61,230 bases of DNA from a virus (taxonomy: Duplodnaviria > Caudoviricetes), in the IMG/VR virus record IMGVR_UViG_3300007734_000738, positions 1-61,230 of that record; one strand, 5' to 3'. The position numbers and the translations under genes were made by a program. Shown here in pieces: positions 33,301 through 49,192 of this stretch. Under the pieces are notes generated by a model. That model was not told where the DNA came from. It worked only from the letters and a program-made list of their open reading frames with translations, and made no database searches. Within the stretch, counting starts at the first letter, position 1, and every line of letters starts with the position of its first letter.

Positions 33301-36300
33301 GCGGTACTGGTTGTCGAAGCATATCGATCGGTTGATTGTGATGGAACAAGACCCCGGTCGCTACCTTGTGACTGCATTCAGAAATGGCAATTATTTGAAA
33401 CGAGTCGGCCGACAGTCAGTTTCCGACATGGAAGGTTTGATTGGGAAAGAACTGACACAAAAGGTATTGAACAAATTTACCACTAAAGATTTTTATGACG
33501 GTTTAGACAATGATCTTGGTCCGCAAGTTGAGCTTTCAGGTCTCGACCTCGAAATGGGCGGATCCGGCATGAAGTATTTCTACGACCAGATGCTGCCGAA
33601 GTTTCTAGAGAAGTACCTGAAACGATTCGGGACGAAGGTGGGGACGACGCAGATCGACGTGGGCGAATATATTAACTACGCCTACACAGGCCCTCACTAC
33701 AGCATTGAAGAACTCGTCGCAGGTCGGACGGCCATGCAGTCTGCGCGAGGCGATCTCTATCAGAGCCCTTTTACGCACAGGAGAATGAGTCATCCCATCA
33801 ATACCGTCACGGACGAAAGTACGTTGAAGAATGTCATCGTGGCCATGCGCGAAGGGATGTCATTTGAAGAGGCCTTTCGGCATCACGGTTCAATCGCGCT
33901 CGCAAAGATATTTGGCGGAGAACAAACTCGTATTGTAGAACGAGACCTTACGTCCGTGCATGCGATCGACATCACCGCGCCGATGAAAGACTCGGTGCTG
34001 CAGGGGCAACCGCTGTTCGCGCCGAAGCCGAAACCCGCACCGACCTTCACAGTCGACCAACCCGGCACGCTCGATCGCGTCATCCGCATCCTGCAGGATA
34101 AGGCGATCGACATCAAACGGGTCGTGGAATCGGTGCAGGCGGCCGGGCTCGCGCTACCGGACGAATTGAATCCGGTGCTCAAAGAAGAGATGTACATGAA
34201 GCGGTCGGAGCAACGCGCATCCGACTTCACGAACGACGAGCTACGTCCGCTGGTCAAACAGATGCAATTGTCGAAGATGACGCTCGAACGAGTGGATCAG
34301 TATGCGCTTGCGCGCCACATCATCACCGACAAAGTCAACGCCCATCTCCAGTCGATTAACCCCGATCTCGCAGGGGCGCCAGCCTACGATCGTCTCGCCG
34401 GGATGACCGATCAAGAGGCCCAGGCGATTCTCTCAGGCCCCGACGCGAAGGTGCTGGAGAGTCTGGCCAAGCGGATCGATGCCATGGTTGAGAAGACACG
34501 CGACCTCATGGTGGACTATGGGCTGGAGAAGCAGTCCACGATCGATGCGTGGCGGAAAACCTATCAGCATTACGTCCCCCTCCATCGCGAAGGCTTCGAG
34601 GAGGAAGGTCATCCAACCGGTACCGGTCGTTCGGTGCGCGGGTCGACCGTCAAAGGACGCACCGGGTCCGGGCTCGGGGTGACGAACGTCCTCGCCAACG
34701 TGGCACAAGCCCGTGATCAGATCATCACGCGTGGAGAAAAACAGCGCCCCGTCATCGCGATGGCCGGTCTGTTGATGCTCCATCCGAACCCGGAGATTGC
34801 CACACTCGATAAGCCGGCGCAGATTCAGATGACGGATCCCCAGACCGGTCTGATCACGACGGTCCCTGGCAACCTGACGAACTACACCGTCCCGACCGTG
34901 CGACGGTATGACCCGGTCGATCGGGTCGTCAAGACCTACCCGGACCCCATGTACAAAGGGCGCGACAATGTCGTGAACTTCCGCGTAGACGGGGTCGACT
35001 ACGCCATCGTCTTCAATGAACGGAATGAACGGGCGATGGAAGCCGCCAAAGCCTTTAAGGAATTAGAGACGCCGAAACTCAACGGGATCATGGCGGCCGT
35101 GGCCCCCTATACGCGCTACCTCGCCTCGATCAACACCCAGTACAATCCAGTGTTCGGTATCGTGAACTTCGTCCGCGATGCGCAGTTCGCGATGATTGCG
35201 TTGGACTCTACGCCACTTGCCGGGATGAAGGCGGAGGTGTTGAATACCGCCCGCAAATCCTTGGCGGGTATCTATCAAGACGCGCGCGCCGTGCGATTGG
35301 GACGGCACCCGAACTCGCAGACTGCACAGATGTGGGAGCGGTTTCAACACGTCGGTGGGCCAACCGGCTATCGGGATCTGTTCTTTTCCAGCACCGACCG
35401 CGGCGCGGAGATTGAACGCATGCTCAAGCCTAATGATCTCGGACTGATCACTGGCCCCCAAGCGTTGGGGAAACGGCTCGAAGAGACCTGGCTCCTCCAG
35501 ACCTTGTCGGATTACAACACGACGATGGAAAATTCCATTCGACTTGGGGTGTTCACGACGGCTGTGCAGCACGGGATGAGCGATATTCAAGCGGCGTCCT
35601 ATGCGAAAAATATCACCGTGAACTTTAACAAGAAAGGGCAGATCGGCGCCCAGATGGGTAGTCTGTTTGCCTTCTTCAACGCGAACGTCCAGGGGACGGC
35701 GCGCATTGCTGAGACGGTTTTTGAACGAACGCCAACCGGGGTGCAACTCAGCGCCATCGGGAAAAAGATTGTCGTGGGTGGCATGCTCGCGGGGATCCTT
35801 CAGACCTTTGTACTCGCGATCTCCGGATTCGGCGATGAGGAACCGCCAGAATACATCAAAGTGAGGAACCTCGTGATCCCGGTGCCAGGGACGAAGGCAG
35901 GGTATCTCCTCCTGCCGATGCCGCTTGGGTTCAATCTCCTGCCGAATATTGGTCGAGCTGCAGCTGAAGCCGTGCGCGCCGGTGTGGAGGGGAAGGATAT
36001 CAATCCGCTCAAACGCGGGACCAATCTGATCGGCGCGATCTATGGCACCTTCTCGCCCTTGGGCGGTACTGGCGGACCGATTCAGGAACTGCTCCCCACG
36101 GTGGCCGATCCGATTGCCGCGGTGGTGTCGAACAAAGATTGGACCGGGAAGTCGATCTCGAAAGAAGATGTCTCAACGCTGGATCCCACGCCCGGTCATA
36201 CCCGGACGCGCGATACGGCTAGTTTTTGGGCGACGTTCTTGTCGAAGGGGATCAACTGGGCGACGGGAGGGACGAAGTATACTCCCGGTGTGCTCAGTCC

Positions 36301-36769
36301 TAGCCCGGACGCGATTGACTATTTGATCGAACAGGTGACGGGAGGGATAGGACGCGAACTCTCGAAGGGGTCCCAAGTCTTGCAGGCGGCCATCACAGGA
36401 GAGGAAGTGCCCTTTCACAAGGTGCCACTCCTCGGTCGCTTCGCCGGTAGTGCGTCTGGGAGTACCGCCACACGGTCGACGTTCTATGACAACGTGAAGG
36501 CGGTCAATCTCGCCTACCGCGAGTTCGAAGGACGCGCGAAAGATCGGACGGGCGATGCCCACGAGTTCCTCCGTACGCATCCGGAGGGGCGCCTCCGTGA
36601 GGCCGCGATCAGCATTGAACGGACGATTGGGCAGTTGAACAAGGTCAAGAAGGATCTCGTCGAGAAGGGGGCGCCTCGCGCTGAGATTCGTCTGCGCGAG
36701 GCCCAAATCACGGGTCTAATGAATCGCTTTAATCAGACGGTGGAGATGCAACGGAAGGGGATGCCGTAG
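27311..36769 (+). CDS. Giant (3152 aa) polyvalent internal virion / ejection protein
   Basis: Membrane-like Gly/Ala region, HEAMH (HExxH) near 29363, several modules, LEEVQSDWH domain, LPD38-like C-terminus (NKDWTGKSI, SPDAIDYLIEQVTGGIG). Confidence 0.85.
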   Translation: MADAPRFSVSGDQIVDTSTGKPVSPDLFNRTSTPQEKAQIGRDLASRSLMTNQEGEGGSATVDEDLASSSTEVPVEAPAGATAPTPTVTPEPVPVAPERAGESVRPAGAPPSLNEFLAAARPENPQFDDREIAIEYRRVYPEASKFYPAPAMEPWIAKAKEANPQFDEAELKSYYTDIYGEQEPKVEHGDVVRGFIESVKQVPQLAYGLTAGAGAVGEKLFGEGGGATALKQFGVENYQRIAADLAKDTKLTDSFNHSYEQAKQGDYGALVDWLQHGFGYVGGQAIQLLATGAVGGIAGKAMLQSTAETVAKNMIAKETAALAAQSAGRLSAEELTKFAVTNVAKNMGQTLAVGATALGMEGGEIFGDLTSDAARQGRQLSGAELAKAGVMTAFAGALEFAGDKIGLDLILGKSPITKMLGTATGVGGRLVRGTEAAAIAAAPEAATEFGQTIAEEWGKGHDVVGTVSPETLRQAQDAAAIGALGGALVGGTAGALQPGAGKEPPPAETPPVGTVPPSPMERVAPVLKATSVDEAISTAAKLVETAPITSAQLDQAIGVPQAAAPAPYTESHLAADQVAFTRMLSEGGVGTVTTDAATGQATYDGSPIRVVDPRTLPATTPPEAGLSQEKLDALSVMAQAFGKRIVVFQTGEKLPNGVFWQSGDPSRIYLAQDTTHEDAFTVFAHEAMHTMQGTPFYEAYKRTIYESRTPEAKALLKVRHGEHLSDAQLLEEAAADIGSTELQKPEMWEKVFANLRTQVGEQQAKVEVVSFIDSLKQIIQRIKGLISTRSLTVNQKTLTELYVKDLEKVQDALAEAVGKTLYDKRFATPEQAKAVGKLTLAKRPTLDRTLLPKDVVETFSSVAQAQRGAPEAAMRAVQKTTGGGLLSSAVERTGDLLHRMVEGARTGTSGRMAVKEKVDALLTSLTHAYGFEKEHGENLVANKADQQAVVEALKTYTQTHRALPVYNRAQWLARAAAVAVGEMRIKDAVAHLRALKNMVDSADFSKEAFAHTRRADRTLQPYLQPIPGKLIGIQKTGSVKIPDFELYNIEVDIPGHPKDSTVTSQTMAEEGYRIVPSDLVSAKELKEEKRATAQKTLEAAKKDEKTEPAKAGAVLNIGLNVNDGSTISAQTALSALKLAGAKVLSHTVRTSNTEPTLIAEIATPLSPEKATALSRTLKQDAIAQRLADGTGALYGPQAEKWGPFNPEYFLGPEAKPTLSPKPTSGDALTRLAQALPTTTSRQGTKFLLPDGTRLTWNPKGGPRAHFSLAESAGVWLDEAIRDGAIRYVWPDGVELGRPLTTKQAEAIVDDWATAERALTVDIRDNLGSVVVSHDFDVLGQDVTPSFLQDWVNFNLEKGETPRFSPKSTAKLTHYSAQKNLTEISPKFHGTGQIGAEARRQMNEGKAYIPRSFFYRAGTKIEPRFKGMSKYTVEVPESSLVDLSTLTGTPTEREQAAKKQGYKGFYNSESSMPNVVAMFEPVSVSKPTGTITHAFMLTGEGLPSVTFVAVEGQQNWHKEVIPHLERIVKNLSREVARFAGYQSNGRMQDPKHFIHGTNGEPVSEFTDVHARGKFNRIILHDARTETMFKPGEIGIVGEGMGPRFSPKVWFSGLGNMLSEKMPAKASVEQVRNLLKSPGVKQDEVKWTGIQDYLDKQTGPVDKHNLLAWLAAHNVEIEEVTKREYTGEKTRSQLPDMSIQEFSDAWNADGTHSEFPGVRIVSVDDGDNYEVRVGDQWLAGDHVSLDQEASSTNAFNSFNHASEAAYEYLVAEPIRREAEQYAEEGPQTRYEGYKEPGGTDYTELLLTWKNPASGPRPNDKFEQAAQARYKKSFDALNEAQQLDIEGDLGVESFSGVRQDIFKSQHFDEPDILAHVRFDMRTDAEGKNVLFLEEVQSDWHEQGREKGYKLSEKESERIVKEIAELSVKIKSTNYRDEEASNEASQLMDRRLDLQQKLYSGIPDAPFSKTWPELVMKRMLRYAAEHNVDRLAWTTGTMQNARYWLSKHIDRLIVMEQDPGRYLVTAFRNGNYLKRVGRQSVSDMEGLIGKELTQKVLNKFTTKDFYDGLDNDLGPQVELSGLDLEMGGSGMKYFYDQMLPKFLEKYLKRFGTKVGTTQIDVGEYINYAYTGPHYSIEELVAGRTAMQSARGDLYQSPFTHRRMSHPINTVTDESTLKNVIVAMREGMSFEEAFRHHGSIALAKIFGGEQTRIVERDLTSVHAIDITAPMKDSVLQGQPLFAPKPKPAPTFTVDQPGTLDRVIRILQDKAIDIKRVVESVQAAGLALPDELNPVLKEEMYMKRSEQRASDFTNDELRPLVKQMQLSKMTLERVDQYALARHIITDKVNAHLQSINPDLAGAPAYDRLAGMTDQEAQAILSGPDAKVLESLAKRIDAMVEKTRDLMVDYGLEKQSTIDAWRKTYQHYVPLHREGFEEEGHPTGTGRSVRGSTVKGRTGSGLGVTNVLANVAQARDQIITRGEKQRPVIAMAGLLMLHPNPEIATLDKPAQIQMTDPQTGLITTVPGNLTNYTVPTVRRYDPVDRVVKTYPDPMYKGRDNVVNFRVDGVDYAIVFNERNERAMEAAKAFKELETPKLNGIMAAVAPYTRYLASINTQYNPVFGIVNFVRDAQFAMIALDSTPLAGMKAEVLNTARKSLAGIYQDARAVRLGRHPNSQTAQMWERFQHVGGPTGYRDLFFSSTDRGAEIERMLKPNDLGLITGPQALGKRLEETWLLQTLSDYNTTMENSIRLGVFTTAVQHGMSDIQAASYAKNITVNFNKKGQIGAQMGSLFAFFNANVQGTARIAETVFERTPTGVQLSAIGKKIVVGGMLAGILQTFVLAISGFGDEEPPEYIKVRNLVIPVPGTKAGYLLLPMPLGFNLLPNIGRAAAEAVRAGVEGKDINPLKRGTNLIGAIYGTFSPLGGTGGPIQELLPTVADPIAAVVSNKDWTGKSISKEDVSTLDPTPGHTRTRDTASFWATFLSKGINWATGGTKYTPGVLSPSPDAIDYLIEQVTGGIGRELSKGSQVLQAAITGEEVPFHKVPLLGRFAGSASGSTATRSTFYDNVKAVNLAYREFEGRAKDRTGDAHEFLRTHPEGRLREAAISIERTIGQLNKVKKDLVEKGAPRAEIRLREAQITGLMNRFNQTVEMQRKGMP

Positions 36770-40911: not shown

Positions 40912-42351
40912 CTATGAAGATGTCAAGCGTCTTCGTAATCCGTCCATCAGACAATCCTGAACGGAACGTTTGCTTTCGTGACTCTCGTAGACGTCTTCGT
41001 CAATCGTCCCTCTAGCCACGATTCGATATTCAAAGACGTTTCGATTATAACCGGACTGGGCTTGGCGAACAGAACCGATTCTTTCGAGCATTTGATCAAA
41101 CTGTTCGCCGTTCCAGTCGCTTGAAAATCGAACCAGAATGTTCCCGCCATGCTGAAGCGATAACCCGTGACCGACACTCGCAGGATGGGCCACAAGCATG
41201 GGTATTTTTCCAACGTTCCATCGTTCAAGAATGCCACGTTCCTGGCTAAAATGGACCGCCTTGGGGAATCGTTTTAGAATTCGCGCGAGATCAGATTTGA
41301 ACGTATAGCCGACCAACAGAGGTGCACCACTTGACTCTTCTTGAATTTCCTGTAGCGCATCAAGTTTTTCCACATGCACGTCTGCCCATTTCCGAATACC
41401 AGGATCGTCAGGTCTACCGAGATACGCCGCCCCTGACGCCATCTGTAATAATTTTTGAGTTTTTGCCCCAGCGCTAAACACTTCAATCGGCGACGCCTGG
41501 ATCTCCGTATATAAATTCTTCTCTAATTCTCGGTATTGACGTCGTGCGTCAGGTGGAAGATCTACGTAGATCGTTCGTGTAATGGGCTTCTTCAGATCAA
41601 ACCAATCTTCCGACTTCAACGCCAAGCAGAGATCCTTCACCTGATTCTCAATGTCCTTCTGTGCGGTGTCGAGCGGTTCGCACCCGTACCCGTCGAGCGA
41701 CGGACGGAACCACCGGTTCTTGAACGCCTCAAAGACGCGGCCCAGTCGTGTGCCGAAATCAAGGTAAAAAATCTGACCCCACAAATCGATCAATCCGTTC
41801 GGCGCCGGGGTGCCGGTGAGTTCCACGAAGCGCTCGATCTTGTGTTCGAACATCGCTTTCAAGAGGGCTTTGGGACGGACGCCTCCTTGGCCCTGCACCC
41901 AACTCGTGCCGGTGTTGTTCGTGCGAATGCTTGCACGCAGGCTTTTGAGTTTCGTGGACTCGTCAATCACGACCATCCTGTAGGGCCAATACTCACCCCA
42001 GGTGTTGATCAACCAAATCAGGTTTTCGAAATTGATGGAGTAGATATCGGCCGGCAGACGCAAGGCCTCACGGCGTTGTGTCTCCGTCCCGACGATCGGG
42101 ACGACCGTCAGATCCGATAGATGCGACCACTCCTTCACTTCCGTCGGCCAGACATCTCTCGCGACTCGCAACGGCGCCACCACGAGCACCGGTTTGTCGA
42201 TGAGTCCGGCGAGCTTCATGCGATCGATCGCGGTGAGGGTGGCAACCGTCTTCCCTAATCCCATCCCGGCCCACAGGGCGCACTTCGGATGTGCGATAAT
42301 ATGATCGATCATGAGATGTTGGTACGGTCGCAAGTTTGATTCGTGCAGCAT
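40912..42351 (-). CDS. SNF2-family helicase
   Basis: GMGLGKT, VIDES, LTGTPAPNGLIDLWGQ, HPASVGHGLSLQHGG, RQAQSG. Confidence 0.92.
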   Translation of the reverse strand: MLHESNLRPYQHLMIDHIIAHPKCALWAGMGLGKTVATLTAIDRMKLAGLIDKPVLVVAPLRVARDVWPTEVKEWSHLSDLTVVPIVGTETQRREALRLPADIYSINFENLIWLINTWGEYWPYRMVVIDESTKLKSLRASIRTNNTGTSWVQGQGGVRPKALLKAMFEHKIERFVELTGTPAPNGLIDLWGQIFYLDFGTRLGRVFEAFKNRWFRPSLDGYGCEPLDTAQKDIENQVKDLCLALKSEDWFDLKKPITRTIYVDLPPDARRQYRELEKNLYTEIQASPIEVFSAGAKTQKLLQMASGAAYLGRPDDPGIRKWADVHVEKLDALQEIQEESSGAPLLVGYTFKSDLARILKRFPKAVHFSQERGILERWNVGKIPMLVAHPASVGHGLSLQHGGNILVRFSSDWNGEQFDQMLERIGSVRQAQSGYNRNVFEYRIVARGTIDEDVYESHESKRSVQDCLMDGLRRRLTSS

Positions 42352-42354
42352 GCG

Positions 42355-43011
42355 CTACCGCATCTTCTTCATGTTGTCAGACTGTTTCGCCTCCGGTTCG
42401 ATATCCTCGTAGAGCACCGGGATCTTCTCCTGAAATTCCTTCAACAAGGGGATCGTCACCTCACGCATCTGAGGATGGGCTTCCCGCGTCGTCCGCATGA
42501 GAAAGAAATGCCGCCAGTTCCGCAAATTGTAGGTGGTCACCAAGCGTGACGCGAGCGCATTCGGAAACACCGAACGCGCAATCTGCGGGGTGCATCCTCG
42601 CGCGATCATGCCTCGGTATCCGATCTCGGCTTCTTCAATCCCGATTCGCCATGGCTGGATTTGATCACTCGTCAATCCCGCGGGAAGAATGAACGAGGGC
42701 GGCATCTTTTTCTCATAGTTCACGAACCGCGTCGATTCTTGGGTATACGCCCCGATTCGGTGGCGCACCCATTCATGGGTGATACCCCGATCCACGACGG
42801 CATCGACCGTCACGCTCGCGTGTTCGGTGATCGACCAGTCACCGTGCCCGAGGACGACGGCCCGGAGAAACTTCTCCCAACTGTCCCCCGTCTGGGCGTC
42901 TTCCGATCGATGAGAGATGCGCCCCGCCCATTCAATCTTCTGCAACAAGGCAATGCCAGCGAACACCGAGTTGACGTCGAGCATCTTTGCGTATGGGTTT
43001 ACAAGTAGCAT
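42355..43011 (-). CDS. thyX: FAD-dependent thymidylate synthase
   Basis: HEWVRHRIGAYTQESTRF (RHRx7S), ARSVFPN, NLRNWRHFFLMR, AHPQMR. Confidence 0.92.
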   Translation of the reverse strand: MLLVNPYAKMLDVNSVFAGIALLQKIEWAGRISHRSEDAQTGDSWEKFLRAVVLGHGDWSITEHASVTVDAVVDRGITHEWVRHRIGAYTQESTRFVNYEKKMPPSFILPAGLTSDQIQPWRIGIEEAEIGYRGMIARGCTPQIARSVFPNALASRLVTTYNLRNWRHFFLMRTTREAHPQMREVTIPLLKEFQEKIPVLYEDIEPEAKQSDNMKKMR

Positions 43012-43020
43012 CTCGCCCTC

Positions 43021-43293
43021 CTAGACAACCGTAAAGTGTTCATCGATCAATTCGATCGAATTCAGTACCAACACGGTTTGTTGCATCTCCTGCAACTCCT
43101 GGTGTCGTCTGCGCTGCGCCGGCGAGACTTTCCCGTACCGGGCTTTCAGTTCGACCCAAATCACCCATCCCCTAGGGAGGAGCACGAGACGATCGGGCAT
43201 CCCAATCAGACCTGGCGAGGTGATCTTGATGCACAAACCCCCGAGCGTACGCACGCGTTGCACGAGGTAGCGTTCGATCGCGGACTCTCTCAT
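43021..43293 (-). CDS. VRR-NUC domain nuclease
   Basis: MRESAIERYL..V...GG.C.K..SPG..GMPDRLVLLP.G....VELK. Confidence 0.88.
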   Translation of the reverse strand: MRESAIERYLVQRVRTLGGLCIKITSPGLIGMPDRLVLLPRGWVIWVELKARYGKVSPAQRRRHQELQEMQQTVLVLNSIELIDEHFTVV

Positions 43294-43529
43294 GGTAATC
43301 CCACCATCGGCGCCACAACAGGAATCAACCGTGTGGCGCCCGTCTCTTGATCAAACTGCAGGGTATAGGCCCGCCCCTTCTCAATGCGAGGATGCGGTGT
43401 TTTGAAAGTAAGTTTGAATCCCCCCTTCGTGGTCAACGTGCTGAGTGACCCGGTGAAGTGCCCGACGAACAGTTCCCTCGTGATCATACGTACACTCCTT
43501 GGTTGTTCGATAAACGCATATTGCACCAC
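43290..43529 (-). CDS. Small hypothetical protein
   Basis: Fills the operon; ATGA overlap with VRR-NUC; exact start uncertain. Confidence 0.4.
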   Translation of the reverse strand: MVQYAFIEQPRSVRMITRELFVGHFTGSLSTLTTKGGFKLTFKTPHPRIEKGRAYTLQFDQETGATRLIPVVAPMVGLP

Positions 43530-43585
43530 GACGCCGAATGCCGCGAGTTCCGATCGATGGTCAACTGGATCGAATCAACGATATC

Positions 43586-43966
43586 TCATAGCCCGGCGGC
43601 TTTCAAACAGAATCGTTGCCACCAGTTCTTCGGTACGAGATGTCGAAGCGTACACTCGCTCACCATCATAATGCGTGGAGATATCTGAGACGAATGCAAC
43701 GCAAGTAAATGTTTCGTCTGCGCCTCGTGCGCACGAAGCAATTCAAGCGCCATGATGGCGTACAAATTGCCATCCCCTATGGGAACTTTCTCGTAGCGTT
43801 CGGCGTACCGCACCGACGTCCACACCGCACTCACGATCGGGCTGTGTAGTCGTGCGGCATGCAATCTCCCTTTGGCATCTTCGCCCAGGTCGAACATGTT
43901 GTTGAACGGCGCGGGACTTCGCTCTAAAATGCGTTTCAGTTCACCCTCACTATTCGGCCAACTCAT
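43586..43966 (-). CDS. Hypothetical protein
   Basis: ATG 43966 (MSWPNS) overlaps the PolB stop (ATGA). Confidence 0.55.
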   Translation of the reverse strand: MSWPNSEGELKRILERSPAPFNNMFDLGEDAKGRLHAARLHSPIVSAVWTSVRYAERYEKVPIGDGNLYAIMALELLRAHEAQTKHLLALHSSQISPRIMMVSECTLRHLVPKNWWQRFCLKAAGL

Positions 43967-44767
43967 AGTGTCACCCCCAAATCGTGTAACATTGATTCGG
44001 CCTCCTTGATGTACCATTCACGATTCAGATCGTCTGGAATCAACAACGGAAGCGTCATCAGTGGTTTGGCTCCCTCACTTTTGGGTACCGTATACCCATT
44101 GTTCTTCACGGTGAAGATCTCGGTCGAATCGGTGTAGTACCATCGAATCACTTTGCCGATCGGTTCGTCTCGATAGAGTGCCCCGCCCGTGATGCTGCGA
44201 ATACAGACGAACTCCCGTATGTCCTCGCAACACGCAATCGTGCCGCGGATCGAGGCCCCGAGTGTCAGATAATCGATGACCGCCCGCGAACAGATCGTCG
44301 CCACCGGATTCTTCTGCAAGGGTAACCCCTTCCCATAGACACCCTTCGTTTTCACATCCCCGTTCGTCAAGATTGCCACATAATTATTGACATCACGCGA
44401 GTAGAGTCCCTGGTAGTCCGTGCGTTCGGTCTCGAACCCGGTGGTGGTCTCCCATTCCTTCACCACGGCGAGCGCGTCGTCAACGGAACTCTGGTGGCAG
44501 CGGACGGTCACCCCATCGGTATTGGCCGAGACGACGGTGCAGTCAAGCACCTCCGAGAGCGACTCGATCAGCATGAGGAGTGCGAGTTGTCCCGTGAGGG
44601 TGACTTGCACCATCAACCCCGGCGCGTAGAGGACCGAGAACCGCGACCCGAGTTTACCGAAAGGAACCGTTAATCTGGATCTTACAACCCTCGTTAACCA
44701 CACTGACCCTTATCAGTTCGGACTCCAATTTAGCGAGTGTGCGCTTTAATGAATCGAGATCGGGCAT
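43963..44767 (-). CDS. Family B DNA polymerase, C-terminal half (own RBS and ATG at 44767; needs a +1 shift near 44660)
   Basis: GAGGAGGGAG-TCC-ATG; MPDLDSLKRTLAKLESELIRVSVVNEGCKIQINGSF, then +1 frame GKLGSRFSVLYAP...SANTDG...RDVNNY...KTKG (motifs B and C). Confidence 0.85.
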
Positions 44768-45425
44768 GGACTCCCTCCTCTATGGTTTTGAAATAACCGA
44801 CATAATGTCGTATTCCTCTAATTGTGCAACGAACGATATAACCGCGCCCATCAGCATGCGGGCACACCCCGCGTTGTTTTGTCTTCGCGTTGTTCCAGAC
44901 CACTTGGTCTTTGGGTACCAATAATGAAACGGCATGCTTCCGATTGTGGGCGAATAGCGTGGCAAATTGAGTGCGAGCAGTGATCGCTTCATCTTTCGTC
45001 AGATAACGGCCAAGACGGTACCGAATGCCGAGATAACAGAAACGAGCCTCCCATTGCGCAGTGGCGATTTTCACTACCCCTACATTTCCAGACGTGTTGG
45101 TCTTTAACAATCTGCGGTTTACGCACTGGTCGCTTCTTGTCGCCCACACACAATTGGATTTGCAGTATCCGGCGTTATTGTTTTTTCGTTCAATGGTCCA
45201 GTCAGACCCAGGTCGAATGCCCATATCTTTGGCAAAATGCCGGAAGTGATGCCATACCGGATCCACTTTGATTCCTCGTCCTCCATAATTTTTATAGACA
45301 GGCGTGAGTGGGTTGTAGCACCGAGCCATCATAGACGCCCACACCGAATAGATCGGATGGGCGCGGCATCGATAGCCGTCAACGAGTTGTCTACGCGGGT
45401 GATAGGTGCGATTGTGTTTTCTCAT
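44730..45425 (-). CDS. Free-standing HNH-AP2 homing endonuclease splitting the polymerase gene
   Basis: YSVWASMMARCYNP...YKNYGGRGIKV...TIERKNNNAGYCKSNCVWAT, NTSGNVGV, two AP2-like repeats (LGRY..KDEA; VGYFKTIEEG); AT-richer than its flanks. Confidence 0.88.
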   Translation of the reverse strand: MRKHNRTYHPRRQLVDGYRCRAHPIYSVWASMMARCYNPLTPVYKNYGGRGIKVDPVWHHFRHFAKDMGIRPGSDWTIERKNNNAGYCKSNCVWATRSDQCVNRRLLKTNTSGNVGVVKIATAQWEARFCYLGIRYRLGRYLTKDEAITARTQFATLFAHNRKHAVSLLVPKDQVVWNNAKTKQRGVCPHADGRGYIVRCTIRGIRHYVGYFKTIEEGVHARSRFIKAHTR

Positions 45426-46506
45426 TTTCCAAATTATATATTTCTTTTTTGATATTTGCAATCTCTTTTTTGAGTTCACTTGCCCGTCGTTTTGCCTTGA
45501 CTCGCTGGTTGAATAAATCCCGGTATACCTGCAAAAATGATGGACCAATGTGAGGAGGGCGCAATTCTTGGTTGAGAATAATCATTGGATAGTACGACGT
45601 CACGTCGAAATCCATCAACACATAGTCGTCGGTCGCCTCGACCACCTGGCATTCTTCTGTCGAATGCAATCCCCCAATGCCCATTTTGAACGTGGCGGTC
45701 CCTGTCGTGAGTGTTTTATTCGCGAGCGCTTTCGGCATAAGGACTGATCCTTTGTCGTTCACGACGAACTCGGACTGCCGAACCGCATCGAGGACATCGA
45801 ATCGGCGAAACGTCATCCAGTCTGGGATCGTATACTGGTATTTATTACCCGCAAGATCACCAGGTTTGAACACCCGTTCGCCCACAATCTTTTCACACTC
45901 GCTGCGAATCACAGCCTCGGCCACCTGGGCATCGGACTTGCTCCGGAGATCGATGCCGTAGGTCGCCGACATCTGTTCACGCAATTCGAGTTGTACCTTC
46001 AACGAGCGATAGAGATCGGTCGTCGTCTCTAAGTCGTTCGAACAATACTCCGTAAGAATCGCGATCTGCTCCGGCGTGACGTGGGTGTCGTGCTGAATGG
46101 GCAATTCCTGAATGAACCGCGAGTGCATCCTGCCGCCATAGAGTTTCAGACTGCCCGCCATCGGCGCCACGTCCATCAGGTCGACGTGATCGAGCCCCGT
46201 CGGGTTCAACTTCACGTTGAATTCTTTCTCGAAGTGCCACGGTTTCAGATGATGCACAATGATCCGGTTGCTGGCCTTCTTGATCTCCTCCGCCGTGGCG
46301 CCCTTCAATGCGAGCATCAGGATAGGGATGTCATACCCCTGGCCGTTAAACGTGATCAACCGATGTTCTCGGATGACCTTCCGAAGCGCCGGTAGATCCA
46401 TCGGATGTTCGAACTTGAATTCTTCGCGCGTCTCAACATTCCGGAAATAAAACAGGGTCCAATTCCAGAAGACTTCACTGTCAAAGACGAGGACCGGTCG
46501 AGTCAT
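45391..46506 (-). CDS. Family B DNA polymerase, N-terminal half (exonuclease plus motif A)
   Basis: VFDSE, TFNGQGYDIP, YCSNDL, DFDVTSYYP, then RVKAKR and a heptad-like tail ending at TAG. Confidence 0.9.
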   Translation of the reverse strand: MTRPVLVFDSEVFWNWTLFYFRNVETREEFKFEHPMDLPALRKVIREHRLITFNGQGYDIPILMLALKGATAEEIKKASNRIIVHHLKPWHFEKEFNVKLNPTGLDHVDLMDVAPMAGSLKLYGGRMHSRFIQELPIQHDTHVTPEQIAILTEYCSNDLETTTDLYRSLKVQLELREQMSATYGIDLRSKSDAQVAEAVIRSECEKIVGERVFKPGDLAGNKYQYTIPDWMTFRRFDVLDAVRQSEFVVNDKGSVLMPKALANKTLTTGTATFKMGIGGLHSTEECQVVEATDDYVLMDFDVTSYYPMIILNQELRPPHIGPSFLQVYRDLFNQRVKAKRRASELKKEIANIKKEIYNLENEKTQSHLSPA

Positions 46507-46895
46507 CGGAATCGCGCCCATTGGCTGAGTAACCATGGCGACATACGTTCGGTCAGGTGATGATCTGCGAGATACACCGTATCCTTACTAGCTCCTCGTA
46601 CACCCGGGTCATGGTGCAGATTCCCTCGTTCGGTTGCGACGGATGCGGCATACACGAGAATCGAACCGTTCTCTTCTTTGCCAACATAGACCTGTTGACC
46701 CCATGAAACTGTGCGCACACGCAGTTTCATTCCCTCAACGACTGAGGTGAAAATTGTTCGGACAATCTGATCAACGTTACGTCGTGTGTCGCACCAGATC
46801 ACTACCGTGGCGTGTTCCTTCGTGACGACACGCAAGGCTTCCTGTACCATGCGTGTCGTGCGGCCGGTGCCTCGGAGATGTTTGAACGGATCCAC
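46503..46895 (-). CDS. Hypothetical protein with P-loop-like RGTGRTT
   Basis: GTG start near 46895; ATGA overlap with PolB. Confidence 0.5.
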   Translation of the reverse strand: MDPFKHLRGTGRTTRMVQEALRVVTKEHATVVIWCDTRRNVDQIVRTIFTSVVEGMKLRVRTVSWGQQVYVGKEENGSILVYAASVATERGNLHHDPGVRGASKDTVYLADHHLTERMSPWLLSQWARFR

Positions 46896-46896
46896 C

Positions 46897-47532
46897 TCAG
46901 TGCTCCTGCCCGTTCTTACTGATCTCGACATCCTCCGACACGAGTTCAACCTTCGGCCACGCCGGCTGCGGCGCGTACGGCATTTTCCGCACGAGCACCG
47001 AGATCGTCTCATGTGCCTGCGCATTGTACTGTTGCTGCTGGAACAGTGCCTGCTCCAGCATTTGTACTTCGAGACGTTTCTCCTGGAGGGTCTTCGCCAG
47101 ATGGCGATTCTCGCTGGTGAGCGAGATCATCGCCGCGGTCTGATTGCTGAGTCCCTCACGGAGATCGTAAATCTCTCGTTCCGAATCCGCGATCGTGACC
47201 GCGTGCTTCTTCATGGGATGTCCTTCCTCCTGACTCCGGTCGTGTTCGGCCGGTTGGTCCGGATTCTTCGGAATGATAAATGTGCGCGACTGGTTCTTCT
47301 TGAGTTTCGCCATGAGCATCTTCACGATGTCGGCGGCATTATAGCCGGCTCGCCACGCGCCGTCAAGTGCTAAAATGATGACGTCGATCCATTCTTCGAG
47401 ATCGGTCGGCTTGGCGAAGAGTTCGTCCAGTTCTTTCCGAATGTGATTGACCGGCCGCGTGGAGAAGGCTCCCTCACCGAACGTCTTTTGGCTCCATCGA
47501 ATGTGCTCTCGGATGTAGGTACGTAAATTCAT
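46897..47532 (-). CDS. dATP/dGTP pyrophosphohydrolase (DUF550, MazG-like) with a coiled-coil C-terminal extension
   Basis: WSQKTFG...VNHIRKELDEL...PTDLEEWIDVIILALDGAWRAG. Confidence 0.8.
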   Translation of the reverse strand: MNLRTYIREHIRWSQKTFGEGAFSTRPVNHIRKELDELFAKPTDLEEWIDVIILALDGAWRAGYNAADIVKMLMAKLKKNQSRTFIIPKNPDQPAEHDRSQEEGHPMKKHAVTIADSEREIYDLREGLSNQTAAMISLTSENRHLAKTLQEKRLEVQMLEQALFQQQQYNAQAHETISVLVRKMPYAPQPAWPKVELVSEDVEISKNGQEH

Positions 47533-48016: not shown

Positions 48017-48412
48017 CTATTCGACGACCAGCGGTCCGAGGAGTTTGAACTCCAATGCTTCGAGTCCCTTTTCACCATCCCCAAACGAGGTCAACGTGAT
48101 CGGTGCCACGTTGACCTCCTGGGTCTGTTCACAGTAGGCTTCCCATTCCTTCGCAAACTCCTTGTAGGCCGGCGTGTTCTCCCCGAGTTGCCATCCTACC
48201 GAAATCGTATTTGCTTCGTCGGTGAACTGCTCGCTGCCATACTTTTGCACCAATTCAATTCGATGTTCTTCGATCGGCGTAAACGCCTTTTCCAAGGCGT
48301 CGTGGAGACGTGCAATCTTGAACTTCGCCGTCATCGGGATCTCTCGCTTGCCACCCATCAGCATGTTGGCGCCACGATAGCCGCAATGAATTTGTCCGTA
48401 GGTGAGGATCAT
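48017..48412 (-). CDS. Hypothetical protein
   Basis: 131 aa; RIELVQKYG pattern; RBS. Confidence 0.65.
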   Translation of the reverse strand: MILTYGQIHCGYRGANMLMGGKREIPMTAKFKIARLHDALEKAFTPIEEHRIELVQKYGSEQFTDEANTISVGWQLGENTPAYKEFAKEWEAYCEQTQEVNVAPITLTSFGDGEKGLEALEFKLLGPLVVE

Positions 48413-48591
48413 ATTAAGTCGTCTCCTTCTTTCGTGTAGTGAGATTTAGGTGCCACATAGACCGCCGATCCCATGGTGCCGTCTGCGTACCGAAGAATAC
48501 AGAGAAAATGTTCCTCCAATTCCTCAATCGCGATCGGCCATCGGTGTGTCTCTCGCAGTGCCGGATCGACGGCTATGAGTTTGATCTGCAT
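48409..48591 (-). CDS. Small hypothetical protein
   Basis: MQIKLIAVDP...; overlaps the next start. Confidence 0.45.
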   Translation of the reverse strand: MQIKLIAVDPALRETHRWPIAIEELEEHFLCILRYADGTMGSAVYVAPKSHYTKEGDDLI

Positions 48592-48622
48592 GGTCTTACT
48601 CTGCGGTTGCCAGATCCGTGGT

Positions 48623-48680
48623 CGGCGCTTCGACGACGGGCGCTTCGACGACGGGCGCTTCGACGACGGGCGCTTCGACG
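48623..48680. repeat. 15-bp tandem repeat (GGCGCTTCGACGACG, about 4 units; VVEAP in the minus frame)
   Basis: Directly visible in the sequence. Confidence 0.9.
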
Positions 48681-48685
48681 GCATC

Positions 48686-49192
48686 CTACTCGACGGCCGG
48701 GGGCTCAACCTCCTGTGCCGGCACACCGGCGTCGAGTAGGATGCCGTCGATTGGGGCCTCGATCGGCGTCGCCGAAATCTCCGGTGCGGTCTCAACGACC
48801 GAGGGGAGGCCCAGCGCACAGGGACCAGCACACAGGTCGTAGCGGTCTTGAATCGCCACCAATCCGCGCACGATCCCGATCGAGATCGCGTAGGCGTCTT
48901 GCTGTGACGCGGTCAGATCTTCAAAGGGCGCGAGATTGGGATGGCGTTTCCCGACGACATCCAACTCTCCGTACTGCCACCCTTCCAGGTGGATCATCTC
49001 GCTCATCCAGGCGTTGTGGAGCGACTTGGGCGTCGACGCCGGTTCGGCGAGCAGGACGTTGACCAGAAACACCGACAACTTTCGTTGCCGATCTGTCAGG
49101 TCGTCCCAGTGCACACCCGGATTGCCGATTTGTTCCGCGTGTGCGGCCATTGCTTCTCTGCAGACCTGTGCCATATGTCGTACCTTAATCAT
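48686..49192 (-). CDS. RyR-domain phage protein
   Basis: TPKSLHNAWM......GWQYG..D...KRHPNLAPFEDL..SQQ. Confidence 0.75.
   Translation of the reverse strand: MIKVRHMAQVCREAMAAHAEQIGNPGVHWDDLTDRQRKLSVFLVNVLLAEPASTPKSLHNAWMSEMIHLEGWQYGELDVVGKRHPNLAPFEDLTASQQDAYAISIGIVRGLVAIQDRYDLCAGPCALGLPSVVETAPEISATPIEAPIDGILLDAGVPAQEVEPPAVE

What the first reader, a model, noticed from the sequence alone, without database searches (positions are those of the whole stretch)
43963..46506. PolB split at the fingers by a homing endonuclease into two separately initiated chains with coiled-coil ends
Seen: the N-half stops after RVKAKRRASELKKEIANIKKEIYNLENEK. The C-half starts at ATG 44767, whose RBS (GAGGAGGGAG) lies inside the endonuclease's last codons, and reads MPDLDSLKRTLAKLESELIRV before motif B. 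The endonuclease overlaps both halves, leaving no room for intron core sequence, and I saw no intein motifs. Established: PolB fingers are an antiparallel helical hairpin; split gp43A/B occurs in some T4-like phages, and mobE splits Aeh1 nrdA. Inference: heptad extensions zip the two chains into a heterodimeric polymerase.
Basis: partly seen in the sequence, partly recalled or inferred. Interest (0 to 1): 0.78.

Follow-up and report, generated by a model that had tools for sequence, protein, structure and literature searches.

The report
Endonuclease-split phage polymerase needing a frameshift
A lake phage's DNA polymerase gene has been cut in two by a selfish endonuclease gene that supplies helical tails to both pieces, and the second piece can be read whole only if the ribosome slips forward by one base inside a catalytic motif.

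Summary
The split is real. On the minus strand lie a PolB N-half (46506-45391), a free-standing HNH-annotated/AP2 endonuclease gene (45425-44730) overlapping both neighbours, and a C-half with a strong RBS and ATG 44767. Three IMG/VR and three metagenome loci share this architecture. On a tree of 116 homologues split and unsplit forms are scattered (at least 20 changes). The helical tails are missing from 53 of 60 unsplit homologues. Five others carry remnants, and in a confident model of one (pLDDT 95) these extend the finger hairpin.

The other 231 codons lie in the +1 frame. Reading TTTC as one step gives a 267-aa protein, gap-free and 91% identical to an intact relative. The extra base is present in independent assemblies. 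The same site occurs in a relative that is 63% identical, and two further alleles are inferred.

UUU_Y is a published +1 slippery site. The layout mirrors the T4 mobA/gene 60 cassette, where recoding protects against self-cleavage.

Best reading: a mobile cassette plus compensatory +1 frameshifting (about 0.5). Frameshifting, chain association and endonuclease activity are all untested.

The parts
45391..46506 (-). PolB N-half (exonuclease, N-palm, motif A DFDVTSYYP, first finger helix, plus C-terminal extension). ATG 46506 overlaps the stop of the upstream ORF. An in-frame ATG at 46536 is the longest start.
   Evidence: (phrog_1252 DNA polymerase, E 1.3e-93, profile 48-404 of 663)
45391..45480 (-). 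C-terminal extension (CTE) of the N-half: (S)ELKKEIANIKKEIYNLENEK plus TQSHLSPA. It is absent from short-finger unsplit homologues. Its last 35 nt overlap the endonuclease start in another frame.
   Evidence: (A348, R351, E354, K356, I359, A360 nearly invariant in 23 split N-halves)
45433..45461 (-). Sigma-70-like promoter match (TTGCAA, 17 nt, TATAAT; 10 of 12) inside the CTE coding DNA, ending 7 nt before the endonuclease ATG. The TATAAT is the Tyr-Asn codon pair of IYNLEN.
   Evidence: 2 matches in the region against 2.6 expected, so not significant by count; 40 nt around it identical in L086, although the endonuclease interior is saturated at synonymous sites
44730..45425 (-). Free-standing endonuclease gene (231 aa). 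The N-terminal domain has a beta-beta-alpha element. The C-terminal part is two AP2-type DNA-binding domains.
   Evidence: phrog_374 'HNH endonuclease', E 7.7e-46, and 9 more HNH-annotated PHROGs; 942 phage records; (dN/dS 0.07 against L086)
44771..44780 (-). Shine-Dalgarno sequence GAGGAGGGAG of the C-half, inside the endonuclease's last codons. Conserved in L086 and L091.
44654..44767 (-). C-half frame 0: N-terminal extension MPDLDSLKRTLAKLESELIRV, then an element-borne copy of the second finger helix (SVVNEGCKIQINGSF), then R and TAA. 37 codons.
   Evidence: P0242; intact homologue P0123
44654..44665 (-). Proposed +1 shift site UCC UUU CGG UAA. A tRNA-Phe slip from UUU (44662-44660) to UUC (44661-44659) puts GGU AAA (G K) in frame.
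   Evidence: TTTC read as one step gives a continuous 267-aa ORF; literature on UUU_Y and UCC_UUU_CGU
43963..44661 (-). C-half +1 frame: FGKLGS (rest of motif B), palm with motif C (SANTDG), thumb. 232 codons plus stop, no internal stop.
   Evidence: (phrog_1252, E 2.9e-78, profile 411-653)
44701..44703 (-). GTG in the +1 frame, preceded by AAGGG. A possible independent start for the +1-frame ORF (rival reading).

Best explanation
The region is a mobile homing-endonuclease cassette, roughly window 45480-44659 on the minus strand, inserted at the tip of the fingers of a Queuovirinae-type family B DNA polymerase.

What the cassette carries:
- an amphipathic helical tail plus stop codon for the upstream fragment;
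- the endonuclease gene with its own start signals buried in that tail's DNA;
- a strong RBS and ATG, and a second amphipathic helix for the downstream fragment;
- its own copy of the second finger helix (..VNEGCKIQINGSF), which replaces the host's copy.

How the polymerase is made: it is produced as two chains. Their tails prolong the two finger helices, so the antiparallel hairpin can form between chains.

The extra base: in this phage and several relatives, the cassette's right end carries one extra base inside motif B (UCC UUU C GGU AAA). A full C-half therefore requires a +1 ribosomal slip of tRNA-Phe from UUU to UUC. Ribosomes that do not slip stop two codons later and release a 37-residue peptide. 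By analogy with the T4 mobA/gene 60 cassette, the extra base may disrupt the endonuclease's own target in the conserved motif B DNA, with frameshifting paying for that protection.

Shown: the anatomy, the reality of the frame break, its recurrence, the scatter of the split on the tree, and the collinearity of the +1 reading.

Inferred: the frameshifting itself and its efficiency, chain association through the tails, endonuclease activity, and the immunity role.
For: **The split and its mobility**
- Unsplit homologues (L001-L003, P0007) align across the break.
- All 7 split loci for which I hold DNA have a homologous endonuclease gene between the halves with overlapping ORFs: window, L018, L051, L080, L086, L089, L091 (L091 is cut at its 5' end).
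- The six full-length endonuclease ORFs (L091's is cut) are 41-77% identical to the window's, while the polymerase cores fall to about 40%.
- On a tree of 116 N-terminal cores (24 split, 92 unsplit; 4 of 120 dropped for ambiguous length), the split state needs at least 20 changes, at least 13 of them forced by well-supported branches. Label shuffles average 22.

**The tails come with the element**
- 53 of 60 unsplit homologues have the short tip. 5 of 60 carry a 15-22-residue insert resembling the two tails fused together.
- An AlphaFold model of one such protein (P0008, pLDDT 95.2) places these residues in helices 322-350 and 354-380, joined by a 3-residue loop. The model has a family B polymerase fold.

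**The frame break is real and recurrent**
- Independent assemblies carry it.
- L086 (C-part 63% identical) has ACC TTT C GGT AAG at the same spot. L091 has AGC TTT TC GGC AAG.
- P0124 and P0144 begin with the out-of-frame read of the same site.
- A further 18 of the 120 listed C-half homologues were gene-called only from behind motif B.
- In 152 surveyed loci the frame is broken next to motif B in only 4. Three of those are among the 7 split loci.

**The +1 reading restores the protein**
- Reading TTTC as one step gives a 267-aa ORF.
- It is 242/267 identical to the intact C-half P0123, with no gaps.

**The site is a known slippery type**
- In passages of the Atkins et al. 2016 review (PMC5009743), UUU_Ynn is called especially prone to +1 frameshifting in bacteria.
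- The same review gives UCC_UUU_CGU as the influenza A +1 cassette.

**Selection and gene content**
- The C-part has dN/dS 0.24-0.31 among the three shifted alleles, and stays open in the window and L091.
- The record holds no PolA and no second PolB copy.

**Precedent for the layout**
- Passages of bioRxiv 10.1101/2022.08.31.505936 describe the MobA element: an in-frame C-terminal extension overlapping the endonuclease start in another frame, an N-terminal extension made of a unique part plus an element-borne homologous region, and a recoding cassette at the 3' end that prevents self-nicking. They also describe fused 'hit and run' forms.
- Tails as assembly domains: Crona et al. 2011 (PMC3045599; abstract and Discussion read).
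Against: - No expression, protein or activity data exist for this phage.
- CGG is not rare in the phage: 25% of Arg codons, 16 per 1000. A crude ORF set holds three other in-frame TTT CGG. The 'hungry codon' part of the mechanism is therefore unsupported, and the host is unknown.
- No Shine-Dalgarno-like stimulator lies close upstream of the site. The window encodes no tRNA.
- L091 carries two extra bases, so a single +1 slip does not restore its frame.
- L086 also has an in-frame TAG in its C-part, on a coverage-3 contig. That looks like decay.
- The closest relative with a known C-half (P0123, 91% identical) has no shift. L089, L018, L051 and L080 keep the endonuclease gene without one. The shift is therefore not obligatory for the cassette.
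- For 18 of the 20 further 'shifted' homologues the evidence is only a truncated gene call.
- The endonuclease lacks a recognisable HNH Pfam match. At the position where I recall HNH enzymes having their catalytic His, all six homologues have Arg (ER/DR). Its activity is uncertain.
- Low synonymous divergence of the tail and head DNA (pS 0.21-0.25, against 0.62-0.72 elsewhere) shows nucleotide-level constraint. That constraint could reflect the endonuclease's signals rather than tail function.
Confidence: 0.5

Rival explanations
1. The frame break is a loss-of-function lesion. The cassette, or error-prone repair at its target, damaged motif B, and the C-half is dead or dying in these lineages. 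The alleles persist because the selfish element spreads in mixed infections, or because replication is supported in some other way.
For: - L086 combines the shift with an in-frame TAG.
- L091 has a different lesion of two bases that a +1 slip cannot mend.
- Close relatives without the shift exist (P0123).
- CGG is not rare, and no stimulator was found.
Against: - The window's genotype is found unchanged in runs from 2018 to 2025, at depths of 16-33.
- Both sides of the break stay open and conserved: a 36-codon head and a 231-codon C-part, with dN/dS 0.24-0.36.
- The break always sits between the same two codons, on a U-run where a Phe-tRNA slip restores the exact consensus.
- The 61-kb record holds no other polymerase, although CheckV rates it only 80% complete.
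Confidence: 0.2
2. The enzyme is made in three pieces without recoding: the N-half, the 37-residue head peptide carrying K-x3-N-G-S-F, and a C-part started independently. That start would be GTG 44703 (+1 frame, preceded by AAGGG) or the TTG-ATG-GTG cluster at MVQV.
For: - GTG 44703 with a G-rich stretch 3-4 nt upstream is conserved in the window, L086 and L091.
- Gene callers chose the MVQV start in many relatives.
Against: - In L091 the GTG frame does not lead into the C-part, and a TAA lies 3 codons before FGKLGS in the C-part frame.
- A GTG start would add 14 residues of out-of-frame junk and cut the motif B helix between F and G.
- An MVQV start would drop FGKLGSRFSVLYAPGL. G37, K38, G40, S44 and P49 of that stretch (P0123 numbering) are invariant in 38 C-halves.
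Confidence: 0.1
3. Recoding happens by another event than the Phe slip. One option is +1 at CGG_UAA with the U of the stop occluded, giving ...SFRKLGS. Another is a -1 or +2 event on the U-run, as L091 would need.
For: - A stop codon sits directly after CGG in the window and L086.
- L091 needs a net +2 or -1.
Against: - It would replace the Gly of F-G-K, which is invariant in 38 C-halves and present in all loci surveyed.
- By my own reasoning, not computed, tRNA-Arg re-pairing on GGU is poor.
Confidence: 0.07
4. One reading: two complete chains, each from one ORF, with the apparent frame break being a sequencing or assembly error.
For: An intact C-half of the same cassette type exists in a close relative (P0123).
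Against: - Identical sequence appears in contigs assembled separately from runs of three studies.
- All sampled 31-mers are present in ten runs of five studies.
- The same extra base appears in L086 and, by inference, in P0124 and P0144.
Confidence: 0.03
5. The halves are joined by RNA splicing (a group I intron carrying the endonuclease) or by protein splicing (a split intein).
For: Endonuclease genes often ride in introns or inteins. 'Fractured genes' with split inteins and a free-standing endonuclease are known (PMC2677866; search listing only).
Against: - No Rfam family matches at E<=1.
- The ORFs overlap on both sides, with an RBS and ATG for the downstream piece.
- The tails are only 20-30 residues.
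- No Hint/intein Pfam match was found.
- By inspection, no Cys/Ser/Thr nucleophile sits at the junctions.
Confidence: 0.02

Closest known systems
T4-type mobA element splitting the topoisomerase gene into genes 39 and 60, with the 50-nt translational bypass (bioRxiv 10.1101/2022.08.31.505936, passages read; the underlying homing study is cited there as ref. 19)
   Same: - An HNH-type endonuclease gene sits between the two halves of an essential replication enzyme.
- An in-frame C-terminal extension on ORF1 overlaps the endonuclease start in another frame.
- The N-terminal extension on ORF2 is built from a unique part plus an element-borne copy of the replaced host segment.
- A break in the reading frame lies at the element's 3' end, inside a conserved part of the host gene.
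- Insertions are scattered and apparently repeated.
- Fused 'hit and run' forms keep tail remnants.
   Different: - A different host gene (PolB), and a different endonuclease architecture (tandem AP2 domains).
- The element is about 0.8 kb instead of 1.1 kb.
- The frame break is one base on a UUU_C site, not a 50-nt gap with take-off and landing codons.
- Only some cassettes carry it. Recoding and immunity are untested here.
Aeromonas phage Aeh1 nrdA-a / mobE / nrdA-b (Crona et al. 2011, PMC3045599; abstract and Discussion read)
   Same: - A free-standing endonuclease fragments an essential gene.
- Both fragments carry short tails that arose with the insertion.
- The fragments are translated separately and assemble without splicing.
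   Different: - In Aeh1 the tails are oppositely charged and serve dimerisation of heterodimers. Here both tails are net neutral amphipathic heptads that would prolong an existing helical hairpin.
- Aeh1 is a single case. Here dozens of 90%-identity clusters show the split.
- Aeh1 has no frame break.
Split gp43A/gp43B PolB of Aeromonas phages 25 and 44RR (described in PMC2988022, passages read; primary paper not seen)
   Same: A phage family B polymerase encoded as two genes, in one case with a seg-type endonuclease between them. The two products co-purify and are active.
   Different: - An unrelated PolB lineage (T4-like), and a different endonuclease family.
- Per that review, the origin of the T4-like split is unclear.
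- The position of that split relative to the fingers was not checked here.
+1 frameshift sites of the UUU_Y type: bacterial UUU_Ynn, Yersinia yopN-tyeA, influenza A PA-X UCC_UUU_CGU (Atkins et al. 2016, PMC5009743; passages read)
   Same: The window has UCC_UUU_CGG. It matches the influenza cassette at 8 of 9 positions, differing only in the wobble base of the Arg codon. A Phe-tRNA slip from UUU to UUC is the proposed event.
   Different: - Here the shift would be obligatory to make an essential enzyme ('compensatory'), not a route to a minor extra product.
- A stop follows one codon later.
- The efficiency is unknown.
Fractured genes with split inteins and a free-standing endonuclease (Dassa et al. 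2009, PMC2677866; search listing only)
   Same: Two gene halves separated by an endonuclease gene in environmental phage-like DNA.
   Different: No intein domains here, so the halves would stay separate chains.

Membership tests
Family B DNA polymerase (Queuovirinae-type, phrog_1252) | Sequence membership of both fragments | tested here: met
   N-half E 1.3e-93 (profile 48-404 of 663), C-part E 2.9e-78 (411-653); 877 phage records, with the best hits annotated DNA polymerase.
Family B DNA polymerase (Queuovirinae-type, phrog_1252) | Motifs A, B and C present and collinear | tested here: met
   DFDVTSYYP, KIQINGSF|GKLGS and SANTDG are present. Motif B is collinear only after a +1 step at F36. 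The motif names are recalled.
Family B DNA polymerase (Queuovirinae-type, phrog_1252) | PolB fold, with a two-helix fingers hairpin at the split site | tested here: met
   The model is of the fused homologue P0008, not of the window's chains: pLDDT 95.2. Foldseek gives archaeal PolB (KOD, 9N, Tgo) at probability 1.00, E about 1e-15.
Free-standing HNH homing endonuclease | HNH (beta-beta-alpha-metal) catalytic motif | tested here: inconclusive
   - Ten PHROGs annotated 'HNH endonuclease' match, best E 7.7e-46.
- There is no Pfam HNH match.
- The model shows strands 76-80 and 92-96 plus helix 97-109.
- The only nuclease among the VIA rows is PacI: Z 4.8, rmsd 4.0, 98 residues aligned.
- Arg is invariant where I recall the catalytic His.
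Free-standing HNH homing endonuclease | Sequence-specific DNA-binding module | tested here: met
   Tandem AP2 domains. Foldseek hits WRINKLED1-DNA (7wq5), E 3.5e-3, probability 1.00. VIA gives Z 6.6, 6.5 and 6.3 to AP2 domains. Pfam AP2 scores E 1.8e-4, below the cut-off, in the L018 homologue.
Free-standing HNH homing endonuclease | Presence/absence polymorphism at one site among close relatives | tested here: met
   (at least 20 changes on the tree; for example split P0016 and unsplit P0031 are sisters with branch lengths 0.066 and 0.088)..
Free-standing HNH homing endonuclease | Cleaves the element-free allele and promotes its own copying | not testable with these tools
   Needs enzyme assays or mixed infections.
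Endonuclease-fragmented gene assembled by element-derived tails (Aeh1 NrdA type) | Tails absent from contiguous homologues and conserved among split ones | tested here: met
   (53 of 60 unsplit homologues lack them)
Endonuclease-fragmented gene assembled by element-derived tails (Aeh1 NrdA type) | Tails needed for assembly or activity | not testable with these tools
   Needs co-expression and tail deletions.
MobA/gene 60-type cassette (endonuclease plus recoding) | Recoding signal at the 3' end of the element that restores the host reading frame | tested here: inconclusive
   - The frame break lies where nucleotide identity to L086 falls from 0.92 to 0.68.
- The break sits on a UUU_C site.
- The +1 reading is collinear.
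- No product was observed, and not all cassettes have the break.
MobA/gene 60-type cassette (endonuclease plus recoding) | Homology to MobA and to the 50-nt bypass cassette | not tested
   No MobA sequence was compared. The domain make-up (AP2 repeats) and the one-base break argue for analogy rather than membership.
Group I intron with endonuclease ORF | Intron core RNA structure | tested here: not met
   (no Rfam match at E<=1 in 43500-47000). ORFs overlap at both junctions.
Split intein | Hint-domain halves with junction nucleophiles | tested here: not met
   (no Pfam match). The tails are 20-30 residues, and no Cys/Ser/Thr sits at the junctions by inspection.

The most novel reading that the evidence does not exclude
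This would be a second, independently evolved natural example of a homing-endonuclease cassette that carries both its own protein 'zipper' and a translational recoding site. The first is T4 gene 60.

The one-base insertion on UCC_UUU_C inside the polymerase's motif B DNA would destroy the endonuclease's target, acting as a 'savior indel'. Programmed +1 frameshifting would then restore the enzyme. An essential phage DNA polymerase would thus be made from two chains, one of which exists only through ribosomal slippage.
Probability: 0.3. Interest if true: 0.9.

Novelty: new variant of a known kind. Interest (0 to 1): 0.72.

Why it matters
Genes fragmented by homing endonucleases, yet still functional, are known from a handful of T4-like phages. 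Why the T4 gene 60 bypass exists has been debated for decades, because that family of elements stood alone.

Here the same design appears in an unrelated polymerase family: endonuclease, tails for both fragments, an element-borne copy of the replaced segment, and a frame break at the element's edge. It occurs in dozens of sequence clusters from lakes, rivers and other habitats. Shifted and unshifted alleles occur among close relatives.

That offers a simple, clonable system to test three questions:
- Do element-derived helices reassemble a split polymerase?
- Is the UUU_C site a working +1 frameshift signal in bacteria?
- Does recoding serve as immunity against the element's own nuclease?

There is also a practical point. 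Gene callers truncate these C-halves at an internal Met (18 of 120 homologues), so the polymerase is mis-annotated in public data.

Tried and rejected
- **Complex prediction.** I submitted the two finger/tail segments: alignment A2 residues 318-381, and alignment A4 residues 1-62 led by P0123. The score was 0.26 against a mark of 0.32, so there is no verdict. It is not evidence either way.
- **RNA runs.** No RNA holder is listed for the stretch, so expression could not be examined.
- **Close relatives in IMG/VR.** A search with the single N-half found none. An exact 18-mer from the conserved head found none. A degenerate pattern for the +1 site found one locus, L165, which is a chance match in structural genes.
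- **Genome collection.** A scan with P0026 returned only an unsplit relative, L170.
- **DNA for further shifted alleles.** The contigs encoding P0124, P0126, P0127, P0129, P0131, P0132, P0134, P0135 and P0144 could not be fetched. Their state is therefore inferred from proteins only.
- **Short head ORFs in the protein collection.** Only two were on record: the window's own and P0243.
- **Conserved RNA structure around the shift site.** With three sequences, few covarying pairs and a covariation term of +0.67, I draw nothing from it.
- **tRNA with an extended anticodon loop.** The window holds no tRNA gene.
- **Hungry-codon idea.** CGG is a common Arg codon in this phage.
- **Cultured phages.** The best tblastn hits of both halves are unsplit genes. 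Five records were inspected. All 25 listed hits of a split C-half start at query residue 29 or later. This shows nothing about the other records.
- **Endonuclease against solved structures by sequence.** Nothing was found; the best E-value was 0.96.
- **Literature.** A search for 'Queuovirinae' + 'DNA polymerase' + 'homing endonuclease' found 0 papers. 'Split DNA polymerase' + 'homing endonuclease' + 'phage' found 2 papers. I saw only their titles and abstract openings, which name a Pseudomonas jumbo phage and phages of OM43 bacteria; I did not open either. These searches cover only the held library.
- **Earlier findings of this scan.** These were closed to the session.

Full report
**1. What is in the sequence**

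Everything lies on the minus strand.

- **N-half.** An ORF from ATG 46506, which overlaps the stop of the gene before it, to TAG 45393-45391. An in-frame ATG 46536 lies further up. It encodes the N-terminal part of a polymerase and ends ...RVKAKRRASELKKEIANIKKEIYNLENEKTQSHLSPA.
- **Endonuclease.** ATG 45425 opens a 231-codon ORF in another frame, ending at 44730.
- **C-half start.** GAGGAGGGAG (44780-44771) sits 3 nt before ATG 44767. That frame reads MPDLDSLKRTLAKLESELIRVSVVNEGCKIQINGSFR and stops at TAA 44656-44654.
- **Rest of the polymerase.** FGKLGSRFSVLYAPGLMVQVTLTGQ... runs to stop 43965-43963, in the +1 frame.

The claim that the ATG 44767 chain continues through motif B is not.

**2. 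Identity of the pieces**

- Both polymerase fragments match phrog_1252 (DNA polymerase): E 1.3e-93 for the N-half and 2.9e-78 for the C-part, covering profile positions 48-404 and 411-653 of 663. Pfam barely sees them.
- The nearest cultured relatives are unsplit polymerases of Queuovirinae-like siphophages, 41-46% identical. I inspected three: L001 at 661 aa, and L002 and L003 somewhat longer.
- An alignment shows the N-half ending in the first finger helix. Motif B then reads K-IQINGSF | GKLGS across the frame break.
- A model of a fused homologue (below) has a family B polymerase fold: Foldseek probability 1.00 to KOD, 9N and Tgo polymerases.
- The window is a whole IMG/VR virus record of 61,230 bases, rated 80% complete. 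It holds no PolA and only this one PolB.

**3. The middle gene**

- It matches ten PHROGs annotated 'HNH endonuclease', best E 7.7e-46. It has relatives in 942 phage records, all under 60% identity, often annotated as HNH endonuclease or AP2-domain protein.
- Pfam finds no HNH domain. The L018 homologue gives only a sub-threshold AP2 match.
- A model from six homologues (pLDDT 74) shows two three-stranded-sheet-plus-helix units. These match tandem AP2 DNA-binding domains: WRINKLED1-DNA, Foldseek probability 1.00, E 3.5e-3; VIA Z 6.3-6.6.
- The N-terminal domain has a beta-beta-alpha element. Its only nuclease look-alike is the HNH enzyme PacI, at a weak Z of 4.8.
- Between the window and L086 the gene has dN/dS 0.07, with synonymous sites saturated (pS 0.72). 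It is a protein under selection.
- Whether it cuts DNA is not shown. All six homologues have Arg where I recall HNH enzymes having their catalytic His.

**4. The split is recurrent and scattered**

*N-half homologues.*
- Among the best 120, 24 are 358-382 residues long and end in a tail. They are interleaved by identity with unsplit proteins of about 590 residues. One of the 24, P0053, turned out to be a cut fused form.

*C-half homologues.*
- A script sorted the best 120: 59 'split with intact head', 18 starting behind motif B, 2 with an out-of-frame prefix, 31 unsplit or partial, 10 other.
- By eye, 7 of the 59 are unsplit genes called from inside the first finger helix: P0137, P0153, P0163, P0164, P0171, P0202 and P0228. 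That leaves about 52.

*Loci with DNA.*
- The split with a homologous endonuclease gene between overlapping halves occurs in L018, L051 and L080 (3 of the 80 IMG/VR loci).
- It also occurs in L086, L089 and L091 (of the 80 metagenome loci).

*Tree.*
- I built a tree of 116 N-terminal cores. Four of the 120 were dropped for ambiguous length.
- The split state needs at least 20 changes, at least 13 of them forced by well-supported branches. Shuffled labels average 22. Split P0016 and unsplit P0031 are near-identical sisters.
- This is how a mobile element behaves.

**5. The tails belong to the element**

- In 60 unsplit homologues the span between the two finger helices has 36-37 residues in 55. 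Five carry 15-22 more (P0008, P0050, P0054, P0058, P0066). Those inserts begin like the N-half tails (R-V-G-E-L-K...) and end like the C-half heads (...MEGLKIAVNGTF).
- These look like fused survivors of an excised endonuclease. The MobA preprint describes the same thing for T4-like topoisomerases.
- The AlphaFold model of P0008 (pLDDT 95.2) puts these residues in helices 322-350 and 354-380, joined by the loop QFD. The extra residues simply lengthen the antiparallel finger hairpin.
- In 23 split N-halves the tail start is nearly invariant: A348, R351, E354, K356, I359, A360.
- Both window tails show hydrophobic residues at 3,4,3,4 spacing and are net neutral.
- A direct test of tail pairing gave no verdict (see Tried and rejected).

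**6. Nucleotide-level constraint at both junctions**

- Against L086, DNA identity is 0.55-0.65 in the polymerase flanks and 0.55-0.80 inside the endonuclease gene. It rises to 0.88-0.90 at 45490-45401 and to 0.82-0.92 at 44800-44652, then drops directly behind the frame break.
- Synonymous difference is 0.21-0.25 in tail and head, against 0.62-0.72 elsewhere. Because the endonuclease interior is saturated, this is constraint and not recent transfer.
- For the tail a reason is visible. A TTGCAA-17-TATAAT match ends 7 nt before the endonuclease ATG. The surrounding 40 nt are identical in L086. The TATAAT is the Tyr-Asn codon pair of the conserved IYNLEN.
- Part of the 'coiled-coil' conservation is therefore the endonuclease's own expression signal. 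Other tail types with different DNA (for example ...AQLRVLDEARGL...LAELERELRDATTS) are also amphipathic helices, so a protein-level role remains likely.
- The reason for the constraint on the head and the second-finger-helix copy is open.

**7. The frame break**

*It is real.*
- See the observation check.

*It recurs.*
- L086, whose C-part is 63% identical, has ...AAC GGT ACC TTT C GGT AAG... with the same F-R-stop.
- L091 (56% identical) has ...AGC TTT TC GGC AAG..., two extra bases.
- P0124 (83%) and P0144 (54%) start with peptides that are the out-of-frame read of the same site. That is my back-translation, an inference.
- Eighteen more homologues are called only from behind motif B.
- Matching 'longest contig' lengths between pairs seven such C-halves with split N-halves: P0006/P0124, P0011/P0129, P0012/P0127, P0016/P0139, P0020/P0132, P0037/P0134 and P0075/P0145. 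One intact pair is P0003/P0123. This pairing is an inference.

*It is specific.*
- Of 152 loci surveyed, the frame is broken beside motif B only in the window, L086, L091 and the unsplit L127, which has messy deletions.

*The +1 reading restores the protein.*
- Reading the single in-frame TTTC as one step gives a 267-residue ORF.
- It is 242/267 identical to P0123 with no gap.

**8. How the C-half could be made**

- The site is UCC UUU CGG UAA.
- Passages of the Atkins et al. [quoted passage not shown] They state that it appears to be the site used for YopN-TyeA, and that the influenza A cassette is UCC_UUU_CGU.
- From memory, a 1997 study of 'UUU-pyrimidine sites' measured UUU CGG in E. coli. 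I did not see that paper.
- A slip of peptidyl-tRNA-Phe from UUU to UUC puts GGU AAA in the A site and yields exactly the family consensus ...NGSFGKLGS.

Against this reading:
- CGG is common in the phage, and three other in-frame TTT CGG exist in a crude ORF set.
- No nearby Shine-Dalgarno-like stimulator is present, and the window has no tRNA gene.
- L091 cannot be mended by a single +1 slip.
- L086 carries an in-frame TAG on a coverage-3 contig.
- P0123, L089, L018, L051 and L080 have the cassette without the break.

I therefore hold programmed or compensatory +1 frameshifting as the best single reading, at about one half. Decay, a three-piece enzyme and other recoding events follow behind it.

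**9. Comparison with what is known**

- *T4 mobA/gene 60 element.* The layout matches point for point as described in the passages of bioRxiv 10.1101/2022.08.31.505936: extension on ORF1 overlapping the endonuclease start out of frame; extension on ORF2 made of a unique part plus an element-borne homologous region; a recoding cassette at the 3' end that stops self-nicking; independent insertions; fused and endonuclease-less derivatives.
- *Aeh1.* The idea that such tails reassemble the enzyme was shown for Aeh1 NrdA (PMC3045599).
- *T4-like split PolB.* Split PolB genes 43A/43B are known in Aeromonas phages (PMC2988022, passages).
- *What is new here.* A different polymerase lineage. A different endonuclease architecture (AP2 repeats). 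A large natural population of split, fused and unsplit alleles. A one-base frame break on a classical +1 slippery site instead of a 50-nt bypass.
- *Literature check.* My searches found no paper on this family. Their terms, hit counts and limits are given under Tried and rejected.

**10. Verdict**

- Observation: partly confirmed.
- Classification: a new variant of a known kind. It is not a member of the MobA family but works like it, and it adds the unreported possibility of obligatory +1 frameshifting in a phage DNA polymerase.
- Interest: 0.72. This would be higher if the frameshift and the immunity role were shown.

Noticed in passing
window 45433-45461 (-): The best sigma-70-like promoter match of the region lies inside the N-half's tail codons, 7 nt before the endonuclease ATG. 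This would give a nearly leaderless endonuclease mRNA. The conserved Tyr-Asn of the tail is the TATAAT box.
   Followed up: partly
L127 1-121: This is an unsplit polymerase of another clade (FGKTSN type). It has its frame broken about 6 codons before motif B's F-G-K, apparently by two small deletions. It may be a sequencing fault on a 1.3-kb contig, or a scar at the same hot spot.
   Followed up: no
L086 1253-1255: An in-frame TAG replaces the conserved Tyr of ...ETER-x-D-Y-x-GLYSRDVNNY in the C-part of the relative that shares the +1 site. The contig has coverage 3.
   Followed up: partly
L003 (Vibrio phage vB_VpaS_ALK) 2348-4609: This cultured Queuovirinae phage has an unsplit polymerase with a 25-residue helical insertion at the same finger tip. 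It was not compared with the cassette tails.
   Followed up: no
window 44798-44810 (-): A short hairpin followed by a T-rich run lies inside the endonuclease's 3' end, about 20 nt before the C-half's RBS. It could limit read-through or mask the RBS.
   Followed up: no
window 40912-43293 (-): Downstream of the polymerase lie three ORFs that I read by eye as a VRR-NUC-like nuclease (43021-43293), a ThyX-like thymidylate synthase (42355-43011) and an SNF2-type helicase (40912-42351). None was searched against a family library.
   Followed up: no
window 48409-49062: Overlapping ORFs on both strands carry a repeated KRPSS / RRALR low-complexity stretch.
   Followed up: no
window 27311-36769 (+): A single 9.4-kb open frame (about 3150 codons) turned up in my crude ORF scan. 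It was not examined.
   Followed up: no
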